Shown here: piece by piece, positions 59,727 to 62,700 of the stretch
Position numbering within the stretch: position 1 is the stretch's first letter
Layout of the letters: every line of letters begins with the position of its first letter
Source: Mytilus edulis
Taxonomy: Eukaryota
Direction: 5' to 3'
DNA length: 64,000 bases
Assembly: GCF_963676685.1 (NCBI RefSeq)
Contig: NC_092351.1
Location: 74,338,001 to 74,402,000, forward strand
Position numbers and translations under genes: made by a program
The notes under the pieces: generated by a model
Seen by the model: only the letters and a program-made list of their open reading frames with translations
What the model was told of the DNA's origin: nothing
Databases searched by the model: none

Positions 59727-62700
59727 GTAAGTTAACACATTAAATTCAAATCAAAACACAGTATTTTCTGATATAAAGTATTTAAGTTAACTGATGTACA
59801 TGCCTAACATGCTATAAAATACAATTCATAAACGATTTCTTATAAAACAATAGTGTGCTCAGAAACTGAATCTTTTAAAATGCAAATAAGTACTGGTAGA
59901 TGTATGAATAAGATGTATATATTTGATTTTTAAGGCACAAATCAGAGTGCCAAAAGTACTCTTATACGACAGTTGAAGATTGTCCATGGAGTTGATTTCT
60001 CTGAAGATGAGAAAAGGAATTTTATTGTACCTATACATCAAAACATTGTTAAGACAATTCAAGACTTGATTTTTGAAAGGAAATTGTTAAACAAAGATTA
60101 CGAAAATCTTGAAAATAAGGTAAAGTCTTAGTAACTATTAACCTAATAGTTAGATATTTTTGCTCGTTAAATTTTATTCTTTGTTTGTATACAATTATCT
60201 TGCATAAGCGTTCCGTTGTGTTTTCTATGATAGAGAAAAGGGAAAGAGAAACGTTAAGAAATTGAAAGTAAGATTACGAAAATCAATTTAAATTCCTGTG
60301 TTACTGTCATATGCTGAAAAGCTCATTCCCAAGACGATGGCCTTGAAATCAATACATTACAAACATTACTCCTAAACTAACTCGTTATTTACTTATATGA
60401 TAAGATTTGTCATGATAGATTTCTTTGGTAGGAAAATGCCAGGATGCAAAAAGAATATTCGAACGTTAGAACATTTACCAGAGAAGATAAACATACTATA
60501 AAGAGATTATGGTCAGAACCGAGGTTGAGACAATGCTGCGAAGAAGTGAGTGCATACCAGTTATCAGACTCCCAGCGGTAGTAAGTTATTCAGTGCTGTG
60601 GGTTATAATAAGTGTTACACAATAGATATAGGAAGATGTGGTGTGAGTGCCAATGAGACAAATCTCCATCCAAATAACAATTTAAAAAAAGTAAACCATT
60701 ATAGGCCAATGTACGGCCTTCAACACGGAGCCTTAATTATCAAAGAAGTGTAACAATAGGACGCCATCGTCAATCTGGAGAGAACCACCTACAGTCGACA
60801 GGGAGACTGGTTATCCTAGTCAATTAATTTAAGTTGCACGCATTTTGTCGAAGCAGGGTTTACAATCCCGTTTTCGATGTTGAACGGCTTTTAATATTCT
60901 TAAAGTGAACTAAAAAGATGACTCAGTCACCAGGGCCAAGTTTTTCGATGGATGTTGAAAAATATCCCTTCAATCAAACTGAAAATATCAATCACTATAT
61001 GTCATACTGCTGCCTAGGTAATCCCGTGTCTTTGTGTGTGTCCCTTTTATTTGCAGGTTGATAATCAAAGATGTAATCATCAAGAGATTTAAACATCCGA
61101 TAAAATAGTCTTGTAAAAATTTAATAATCACGAACAACAAAGGGAGAATGTAAACGCATGCTGATGAACAATCAAATAACATAGAGAGCACAGTAGGCAT
61201 TTATATTATAAAATATTGTCCATTGTTACAGTAATGGAATGTCTGTATAATACGTTATAATATTAATATAGCATCAAAGAAATCAGCAAATATTTACAAA
61301 AAATCGTAAACTAATTATATATGATGTATCGTAGTTTATAATTGAACGTGTCATGGTTTATTTTAAGTATTTTGATTGGCTTATCTAAAGTCAGTCACAT
61401 AAGTCACATATATTTTGGCAATACAAGAAAACACATGACATTTACATTTGTATTAAAATCCTTTTAATTTTGGTGAATTTCTCGATGTAGTATACATTAT
61501 TGTTGTGTTAGTTTTACAACACGTGTATAGACACTTTCTAGTTGCCATCTGATTTCAGCTTTATGCAACATATCGACCGAGTAACAGAATCTAACTATAT
61601 CCCCACGGTTCAAGATATTTCGCATATCACTGTTAATTTTAATGGCATAGCAGAATATCTTTATCATGTTGATGATCTTCCACTCAGGTAAGTAGTAAAA
61701 TGTTTATATTGTTATATCTAAATTGATAGAAGATTTATTTGTTTGTTTTTATATTGATTTGGATTATTAAGCAATGATTACTGCTGTACCCCTATCTATA
61801 AACGTACACACATGTTGGCGTATGAGAACGTACAACGTCAGAGTGGGAGTGTCGCGATTAAAATTGACATCATTGAAAATAAAAGTAATACTTTTAACTA
61901 ATCAGAAGATAGTAGATGCACCAAATGTATTTATTGATAAATAAAGCATGTATCATTTATGATCTACCATCGATATACGATATTCGAACGACAACACTAC
62001 ATTTAGATATCACACAACAATCGTTTTGAAATGATATTATGAGATAATATTTGAATATTTCTATTGACTTCTTATGTTATATTCATTCAATTCTTATAGA
62101 ATTATTGATATACGAGGCCTTAGGACAGAAAGACGAAAATGGATTCATTATTTTGAAAGTATTCCAGTCCTGATGTTTATCTTAGCTCTCAGTGATTATG
62201 ATCAAATTGAAATTAATGATACAGTAAGTAAATACAATATAGTATGAAAAGTAATATGATGAATGTTAAGATACCAAGCGTTTAATATTAAGTCACATTC
62301 ACCAACTTTGACTTGTCATTCTGAAAGTATCGTATTGTTGTTAATTGTAGGATATTTGTCCGGAAAAAATCTTATTTTGTATTTGTTATTCGCATTCAAA
62401 ATTTTAAATGAATATCAAAATTGTGGTTGGTTTCATCTTCTCCATTTCTGTGCATCAGCATATTTTTTTATTAAATTCAAACGAAGCTGATAAATTTATT
62501 TAATTGTTAATTTCTCATTTTATATGAAAAAGTTAATCATTTTATAAATATTTTGAAAAACATTATTATGTTATATTGAACAGTTTTATTAAGCAAAATG
62601 TTAATATGAATATCAAATTCGATTCTGTGCACATTTCAGAACCGTATCGATTTAGCTAAAACCCTGTTTAAGACATATATCAATAATGAATGGTTCAGAA

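What the first reader, a model, noticed from the sequence alone, without database searches (positions are those of the whole stretch)
59935..61646. P-loop and switch I remodelled: nucleotide/Mg2+ binding itself may be lost
Seen: the Walker A glycine before the lysine is Ala (GCC 59949-59951) and the Ras-G12-equivalent Gly is Asn. The switch I Arg finger is Thr (61629-61631) and the Mg2+-coordinating Thr (GNAQ T186) is Phe (61638-61640). The TCAT Ala is Leu; mutating this site is known to speed GDP release in Gs/Gi. Lys-Ser of G1, DxxG and NKKD are kept. Inference: this separates two models, GTP-locked active versus nucleotide-free or Mg-independent pseudo-GTPase.
Basis: partly seen in the sequence, partly recalled or inferred. 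Interest (0 to 1): 0.7.

Follow-up and report, generated by a model that had tools for sequence, protein, structure and literature searches.

The report
Mussel Gq copies with dead switch
This mussel gene is one of a small family of duplicated Gq signalling proteins that have lost the residues used to split GTP and lock the 'on' shape, so they likely act as switch-dead decoys, while the extra P-loop damage flagged here is confined to this one, likely decaying, copy.

Summary
The substitutions are real. The window holds an open 8-exon, 349-aa G-alpha-q duplicate, one of four tandem copies in a Mytilus genome (two broken). Loss of Arg183, Thr186, Gln209, Gly48, Glu49 and Ala331 is shared by a long-stemmed clade found in four named Mytilus species. 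The headline Walker A Gly>Ala is private: every other clade sequence covering the site keeps Gly, and two DNA runs hold a second haplotype that differs at that base. P-loop Lys-Ser, Asp205, Lys275 and Asp277 are kept throughout, so loss of nucleotide binding is not the family trait. Most likely the clade is GTPase-dead and cannot reach the active shape, still binds nucleotide loosely, and holds G-beta-gamma as a receptor-uncoupled decoy (inferred from mammalian mutants; untested). 'GTP-locked active' is the weakest model. The window's copy evolves fast, has broken alleles, and showed no spliced reads in two RNA runs. New animal variant of the atypical G-alpha kind (plant XLG parallel).

The parts
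59618..59726 (+). Coding exon 1. ATG at 59618 (MFMCC...) or 59624 (MCC...); N-terminal Cys pair, likely palmitoylated as in Gq; alpha-N helix
   Evidence: GT donor at 59727
59935..60119 (+). Exon 2 (185 nt, same length as own Gq): P-loop GTNQSAKST, alpha1, alphaA
59949..59951 (+). Gly51>Ala codon GCC; private to this haplotype; position 59950 is polymorphic in runs X7 and X8
60432..60580 (+). Exon 3 (149 nt; two codons shorter than own Gq): helical domain
61559..61687 (+). Exon 4 (129 nt): switch [12 protein letters not shown] with Leu180>Ser, Arg181>His, Arg183>Thr, Thr186>Phe
62100..62223 (+). Exon 5 (124 nt): G3/switch [19 protein letters not shown] with Gly207>Arg, Gln209>Leu, Cys219>Tyr; switch III shortened by two codons
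62640..62793 (+). Exon 6 (154 nt): alpha3 with Glu250>Leu and TYP>NNE effector loop; G4 NKKD intact
63376..63483 (+). Exon 7 (108 nt): alpha4-beta6 and G5 TCLS (Ala331>Leu); most Gq-like exon (24 of 36 residues); skipped in two public gene models
63771..63868 (+). Exon 8: alpha5 and new C-terminal tail ...[15 protein letters not shown] in place of Gq's ...KEYNLV

Best explanation
This gene is a tandem duplicate of Gq from a Mytilus clade that has lost the GTP-splitting and on-state-locking residues, so the clade is predicted to be GTPase-dead and unable to reach the active shape, and likely works as a membrane-anchored, receptor-uncoupled decoy that holds G-beta-gamma; the window's own copy carries extra private damage and is likely decaying. 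Shown: Gq origin, clade-wide residue changes, purifying selection between copies, spliced-size transcripts of a sister copy, private Gly51>Ala. Inferred from mammalian mutants: nucleotide still binds but exchanges fast (Ala331>Leu, Gly207>Arg); no hydrolysis (Arg183, Gln209, Thr186 gone); switch II cannot latch onto alpha3 (Glu250 gone, bulky residue at Gly48); the beta-gamma face of switch II is kept. Speculative: the CCC tail is lipidated and blocks receptor coupling.
For: Origin: internal exon lengths 185/155/129/130/154/108 of copy D equal those of the genome's own Gq; clade of 8 rows has support 100/100, stem 0.48, inside canonical Gq; predicted fold of sister protein P0007 has pLDDT 86 and best matches Gq structures. 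Directed loss: of 74 positions invariant in canonical G-alpha rows, 18 are changed in all clade rows, and they include Gly48, Glu49, Arg183, Thr186, Gly207, Gln209, Glu241, Glu250, Ala331; 34 are kept in all, among them Gly46, Ser50, Lys52, Ser53, Asp205, Gly208, Arg210, Arg213, Lys215, Trp216, Phe220, Lys275, Asp277. Selection: dN/dS 0.42 (95% bootstrap 0.30-0.57) window vs copy D at dS 0.72; 0.24 (0.13-0.40) D vs C. Expression of the clade: 12 Logan proteins of 360 aa on contigs of 1209-1321 nt, i.e. intron-free; run X1 (another species label, RNA guessed) has a contig joining exon 4 to exon 5 at depth 25 against 2-4 for intron-bearing pieces. [quoted passage not shown] Window copy decaying: 35 vs 13, 35 vs 10, 26 vs 12 and 25 vs 16 private changes against the M. 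coruscus orthologue (p 0.0015, 0.0002, 0.023, 0.16 by outgroup); another M. edulis record goes out of frame after NKKD (P0162); run X10 has a stop at 59967 in one contig of depth 2.4.
Against: No binding or activity data exist; every functional step is transferred from single mutants of other G-alpha subtypes to a protein with about ten such changes at once. Go G203R alone showed decreased G-beta-gamma co-precipitation (PMC9544338 section 7; 'near-normal' in PMC11291268), and Gi1 G42V is reported as GTPase-deficient and active (PMC9283941, passage), so the analogues do not all point one way. Thr187 is changed in all clade rows and the window's alpha-N helix has several private changes, which could weaken G-beta-gamma binding. 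Copy D has NKKD>SKKD in two species, so guanine recognition is eroding in one branch. Two of four copies in the cluster are broken and orphan exons lie elsewhere; dN/dS of 0.2-0.4 is relaxed beside canonical Gq (85.6% identical to human G11). Two raw RNA runs of the same species label as the best DNA holder (19% and 25% of reads) gave no depth on exons 1-3 and 6 and at most one read pair on exon 5. Glu241 lies beside a two-codon deletion and an acid sits at 239, so that loss is less sure.
Confidence: 0.45

Rival explanations
1. Dispensable, decaying duplicates: the clade is a birth-and-death tandem family with little or no present function, and the window's copy in particular is a pseudogene in the making.
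For: 2 of 4 cluster copies have stops or frameshifts, plus orphan exons at C6:52.2657M and C8:74.0894M; frameshifted record P0162; stop codon in X10; second haplotype differs from the window at 6 non-synonymous and 3 synonymous codons of exon 2 away from a one-codon gap, with N:S sites 140:34; no spliced reads in X15/X16; two public models skip exon 7. Gene presence/absence variation is massive in Mytilus (PMC7653742, search listing only).
Against: dN/dS intervals exclude 1 for all five pairs tested; ORFs stay open over dS 0.7; switch II and the CCC tail are invariant across subclades 54-56% identical; 12 intron-free full-length transcript contigs of a sister copy. These argue for the clade, not for the window's allele.
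Confidence: 0.25
2. One reading: a nucleotide-free or Mg2+-independent scaffold like plant XLG2, in which the pocket is vestigial.
For: Thr186 (Mg2+ ligand) lost and Ala331>Leu in all rows with a true G5; window allele adds Gly51>Ala and Leu180>Ser; Go G45E/R (same Gly) has no measurable nucleotide binding (PMC11291268 passage; PMC10872635 section 10); Ras G15A and RhoA G17A are used as nucleotide-free mimics (recalled); copy D has SKKD.
Against: Gly51 is kept in all 14 database clade proteins that cover it and in copies A, C, D and the C6 fragment; Lys52, Ser53, Asp205, Lys275, Asp277 are invariant, unlike XLG2, which lacks the P-loop Lys and has RLNP for DVGG (10.1101/795088, passages). Gly>Ala is much milder than the Glu/Arg variants.
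Confidence: 0.2
3. GTP-locked, constitutively active Gq mimic that drives PLC-beta without a receptor.
For: Gln209>Leu/Pro are the classic activating Gq changes (PMC12033907, abstract start in search listing) and occur naturally in the window and M. coruscus copies; Arg183 is also lost; D/E-type copies keep the Gq effector loop I-I-D-Y-P-W-F.
Against: Glu250 of the G-R-E latch, Thr186, Gly48 and Gly207 are all changed, each known to block the active shape in other G-alpha proteins (PMC3285607, PMC9544338, PMC10872635); the window's branch has replaced the T-Y-P effector loop by N-N-E.
Confidence: 0.1

Closest known systems
Canonical G-alpha-q/11 (GNAQ, GNA11; own copy at G000:C11:10069439-10092594)
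   Same: Fold, Pfam PF00503, intron positions and phases, N-terminal Cys, P-loop Lys-Ser-Thr, DxxG, NKxD, switch II beta-gamma face; 47% identity.
   Different: Arg183, Gln209, Thr186, Gly48, Glu49, Gly207, Glu250, Ala331 replaced; receptor-coupling tail EYNLV replaced by a longer CCC tail; fast-evolving tandem family.
Plant extra-large G proteins (Arabidopsis XLG2, 'decoy G-alpha', bioRxiv 10.1101/795088)
   Same: Both catalytic residues (Arg, Gln) lost; proposed to act by holding G-beta-gamma independent of a normal cycle.
   Different: No N-terminal extension; arose independently from animal Gq; keeps P-loop Lys-Ser and G3 Asp, which XLG2 lacks, so nucleotide binding is more likely retained.
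Activation-defective G-alpha mutants (GNAO1 G203R, E246K, C215Y; Gi1 G42R / Gq G48R; GNAQ Q209L/P)
   Same: Identical substitutions at the equivalent sites for G203R and C215Y in all 8 clade rows, Q209L/P in 3 of 8, and loss of the same Glu.
   Different: Those are single disease or laboratory mutations in a working gene; here they are fixed together in a duplicated gene under purifying selection.
Divergent Gq duplicates of flies and nematodes (P0219 Cochliomyia, P0167 Pristionchus)
   Same: Lineage-specific Gq-derived copies with altered G1-G3 motifs.
   Different: Each keeps Gln209 (and P0219 keeps Arg183); they do not group with the mussel clade.

Membership tests
Heterotrimeric G-alpha family | PF00503 match above cut-off; Ras-like plus helical domain fold | tested here: met
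   260 bits for P0285 (window gene minus exon 7), 340 for P0007, cut-off 48.8; fold of P0007 matches Gq, TM about 0.8-0.9
Gq class by descent | Gq exon borders and phylogenetic nesting | tested here: met
   Exon lengths and phases match own Gq; clade inside canonical Gq at support 90/85, placement among Gq rows unresolved, no AU test run
Canonical catalytic Gq | Switch I Arg183 and Thr186, switch II Gln209 | tested here: not met
   Thr, Phe, Leu in the window; changed in all clade rows
Canonical catalytic Gq | P-loop GxGESGKS | tested here: not met
   GTNQSAKS in the window; GT[N/H/D][Q/R]SGKS in other members
Canonical catalytic Gq | G4 NKxD and G3 DxxG | tested here: met
   NKKD and DIRG in the window; SKKD in copy D
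Canonical catalytic Gq | Receptor-coupling C-terminus ...EYNLV | tested here: not met
   ...[10 protein letters not shown]
XLG-type atypical G-alpha | Loss of both catalytic Arg and Gln | tested here: met
XLG-type atypical G-alpha | Loss of P-loop Lys and G3 Asp; long N-terminal extension; plant lineage | tested here: not met
   Lys52 and Asp205 kept; 349-360 aa; nests in animal Gq
XLG-type atypical G-alpha | Weak nucleotide binding with retained G-beta-gamma binding | not testable with these tools
   needs purified protein
Pseudogene | Stop, frameshift or broken splice site | tested here: not met
   Open 349-codon frame, 7 GT-AG introns in the window; broken forms exist in P0162 and X10
Pseudogene | No transcript | tested here: inconclusive
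   No spliced reads in two partly read RNA runs of unknown tissue; an exon 4-5 joint in X1, another species label

The most novel reading that the evidence does not exclude
Mussels have evolved a dedicated, selected family of switch-dead Gq proteins, an animal counterpart of plant XLG decoys, that fixes in one protein the changes known singly from human GNAO1 encephalopathy (G203R, C215Y, E246 loss) and uveal melanoma (Q209L/P), swaps the receptor-coupling tail for a lipid anchor, and dampens G-protein signalling by holding G-beta-gamma or Ric-8.
Probability: 0.3. Interest if true: 0.75.

Novelty: new variant of a known kind. Interest (0 to 1): 0.5.

Why it matters
Animal G-alpha subunits are among the most conserved switches; none of 136 full-coverage divergent representatives had lost both catalytic residues. 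A selected, transcribed clade without them would show that animals too use G-alpha as a non-cycling regulator. It would also be a natural test set: proteins that tolerate G203R-, C215Y-, E246- and Q209-type changes together could show which compensating residues make such changes foldable and harmless, which bears on how dominant G-alpha disease mutants act.

Tried and rejected
Alternative canonical exons in the introns: none. Second copy of the window's exons 2-3 in G000 that could explain the second haplotype: one DNA match only; a copy absent from this assembly cannot be excluded. Retrocopy origin: rejected, all seven introns are present. Clade members outside Mytilus: none seen in three word-based searches (one search listed 120 of 833 hits, one search scored 24 candidates) or among the best 150 of 15,445 representative hits; full-length members probably cluster with Gq at 50%, so this is weak. 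No RNA holder listed as such for the window stretch. ESM Atlas gave no answer for P0007. The contrast of nine activation residues against other invariant sites (Fisher p 4e-7) used a set chosen after seeing the data and is descriptive only. In one search row P0301 is misaligned at 48-54 (its model lacks exon 2) and P0165 is unreliable after residue about 297. The tree was built with the last exon of own Gq one base out of frame; this was corrected for and the tree was not rebuilt. No complex prediction was run: no G-beta sequence was in hand and a G-alpha/G-beta pair would tend to pass by likeness to solved structures. The window's own spliced protein was not folded; sister protein P0007 was. 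Literature: searches (0 papers; 2 unrelated papers) found no description of this clade, nor did the listings of 33, 40, 73; PMC5896119 has no hit for Mytilus or molluscs. The library lacks most subscription papers, and supplements were not read.

Full report
Gene model. The finding lies in a G-alpha gene on the + strand with eight coding exons (59624-59726, 59935-60119, 60432-60580, 61559-61687, 62100-62223, 62640-62793, 63376-63483, 63771-63868). All seven introns are GT-AG and the frame is open for 349 codons; an in-frame ATG two codons upstream (59618) is probably the true start. A public Mytilus edulis protein (XP_071124187, P0285) is letter-identical except that it lacks exon 7; it may rest on the same DNA and is not independent evidence. 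The organism is thus a blue mussel of the genus Mytilus.

Observation. The motifs read [32 protein letters not shown] and TCLSD. Such changes are rare: in the 150 best hits of a representative library, 0 of the 136 covering all four key sites lacked both Arg183 and Gln209, and Gly51 was changed in 2 of 141.

Context. A PF00503 search of the genome shows the usual single-locus Gq, Gi, Go, Gs, G12 and two further G-alpha genes, and a cluster of four divergent copies within about 155 kb of contig C8. Copy A (74324.8-74332.3k, minus) has stops and frameshifts. Copy B is the window gene. Copy C (74432-74442k) has a stop in exon 4 and damage in exons 1 and 6. Copy D (74467-74478k) is open but has SKKD and a TG in place of the exon 3 acceptor AG. 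Orphan exons lie at C8:74.089M and C6:52.266M. Database relatives come from M. coruscus (P0005, P0165), M. californianus (P0125), M. galloprovincialis (P0301), M. edulis (P0162) and 12 unnamed Logan proteins. These form one clade (100/100) on a long stem inside canonical Gq, with three subclades. Copy D has the same internal exon lengths as the genome's Gq, so the family arose by DNA duplication of Gq before these Mytilus species split.

What is shared and what is private. Shared by all clade rows that cover the site: loss of Gly48, Glu49, Arg183 (always Thr, with Asn in one Logan variant), Thr186, Gln209 (Leu, Pro or Ala), Ala331 (Leu), and Gly207>Arg, Cys219>Tyr, Glu250>Leu/Ile. All five rows with a true C-terminus carry Cys-Cys-Cys near or at the end. 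Kept by all: Gly46, Ser50, Lys52, Ser53, Asp155, Asp205, Gly208, Lys275, Asp277 and the switch II run [11 protein letters not shown]. Private to the window: Gly51>Ala and Leu180>Ser (the latter also in the M. edulis record P0162). Gly51 is kept in all 14 database clade proteins that cover it and in copies A, C, D and the C6 fragment. In DNA runs X7 and X8 two contigs end at 59980, one identical to the window and one with a single other letter, and the next contig begins at 59951. A 30-base overlap of this kind puts the difference at 59950, the middle base of the Ala codon (assuming 31-mer unitigs). The letter is not printed; Gly (GGC) is the likely reading, Asp or Val the alternatives. The second haplotype also has the M. 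coruscus residue at three other exon 2 codons. X7 may be the source of the assembly; X8 is another sample of the same study.

Selection and expression. dN/dS is 0.42 (0.30-0.57) between B and D and 0.24 (0.13-0.40) between D and C: constrained, but far looser than Gq. The window copy has 1.6 to 3.5 times as many private changes as its M. coruscus orthologue, significant with three of four outgroups. Another M. edulis record leaves the frame just after NKKD (may be an assembly error in an A run) and a low-depth contig in X10 has a stop in exon 2. Twelve Logan proteins of the P0007 subclade sit whole on contigs of 1.2-1.3 kb, which can only be intron-free transcripts. For the window's subclade, run X1 (different species label, RNA guessed) has a contig that joins exon 4 to exon 5 at about ten times the depth of intron-bearing pieces, with the letters between not shown. 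Two raw RNA runs, read to 19% and 25%, gave no spliced reads and at most one pair on exon 5; tissue unknown.

Mechanism. Hydrolysis is predicted to be absent, since both catalytic residues and the Mg2+-binding Thr are gone (established G-alpha chemistry; 10.1101/795088 passages). Nucleotide binding is predicted to persist in the clade because the beta-phosphate, Mg2+-Ser, G3 Asp and guanine contacts are what selection kept; Ala331>Leu should speed release (recalled for Gs A366S and Gi A326S). The active shape is predicted to be out of reach. Gq G48R and Gi1 G42R do not activate and prefer G-beta-gamma in any state (PMC3285607, abstract). Go G203R and E246K, the equivalents of Gly207>Arg and Glu250 loss, load GTP fast, hold it poorly and fail to take the active shape (PMC9544338, abstract and section 7). 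Mutants of the Gly-Arg-Glu latch keep a GDP-like shape and do not release G-beta-gamma (PMC10872635, sections 10-11). Go C215Y, the equivalent of Cys219>Tyr, binds G-beta-gamma more (PMC11291268, passages). Against this, G203R alone bound less G-beta-gamma in one study, and G42V is described as active (PMC9283941, passage). The same disease mutants gain binding to Ric-8 (PMC12423288 and PMC11291268, passages), a second possible target of a decoy. The new tail lengthens alpha5 past the residues that enter a receptor and ends in CCCF, a CaaX-like or palmitoylation signal (recalled rule; untested), which would anchor the protein and uncouple it from receptors. I therefore put 0.45 on an activation-incompetent decoy, 0.25 on functionless decay, 0.2 on a nucleotide-free scaffold, 0.1 on a GTP-locked activator. 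For the window's own allele decay is more likely than for the clade.

Comparison. It is a G-alpha and Gq by descent but fails the catalytic and receptor-coupling features of canonical Gq. It works like, but is not, a plant XLG: XLG2 also lacks both catalytic residues and was proposed as a G-beta-gamma decoy, but it has lost the P-loop Lys and G3 Asp that the mussel proteins keep (10.1101/795088, abstract start and passages). Two earlier scan notes describe dead G-alpha paralogues in Naegleria; I did not test them, and they concern another lineage. My searches found no paper on this mussel clade.

Verdict. Observation confirmed; interpretation partly supported. The real feature is a Mytilus clade of switch-dead Gq duplicates; the P-loop Gly>Ala is an allele-level change in a fast-evolving copy. 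New variant of a known kind; interest 0.5.

Noticed in passing
window 20536-21195 (-) and 39334-40053 (+); G000:C8:74428285-74429049 (-) and 74447455-74448216 (+): Four single-ORF B-box-like/coiled-coil genes alternate with the four G-alpha copies; Pfam B-box hits are below cut-off. They may have been duplicated with the G-alpha genes.
   Followed up: partly
window 27494-31147 (-): LINE-type reverse transcriptase remnant, RVT_1 E 1e-28, in several frames.
   Followed up: partly
G000:C8:74471118 and 74435227 (copies D and C, exon 3): Both have TG instead of AG at the exon 3 acceptor; an in-frame AG lies 15 bases downstream. The M. galloprovincialis model handles this junction oddly too.
   Followed up: no
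G000:C8:74474351-74474504 (copy D exon 6): NKKD is SKKD in copy D and in its 95%-identical M. galloprovincialis orthologue, so this guanine-contact change is shared by two species.
   Followed up: partly
window 63376-63483: Exon 7 is skipped in both the M. edulis and M. coruscus public models although it is intact and the most Gq-like exon; skipping is in frame and would delete the G5 motif.
   Followed up: partly
G000:C11:10070923-10070991 (-): The end of canonical Gq exon 7 is repeated just downstream in the intron, with a stop codon.
   Followed up: no
G000:C912 vs C5:39.87-39.90M: Small contig C912 repeats the Go gene of C5, probably an unmerged haplotype.
   Followed up: no
window 60620-60734, 61812-61968, 62873-63064: High-copy transcribed repeats in introns 3, 4 and 6 dominate read depth and explain small run shares.
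   Followed up: no
window 61629-61631: The arginine-finger position is Thr in all 7 covering clade rows, three residues before the lost Mg2+-binding Thr; it might serve as a substitute ligand (speculation).
   Followed up: no
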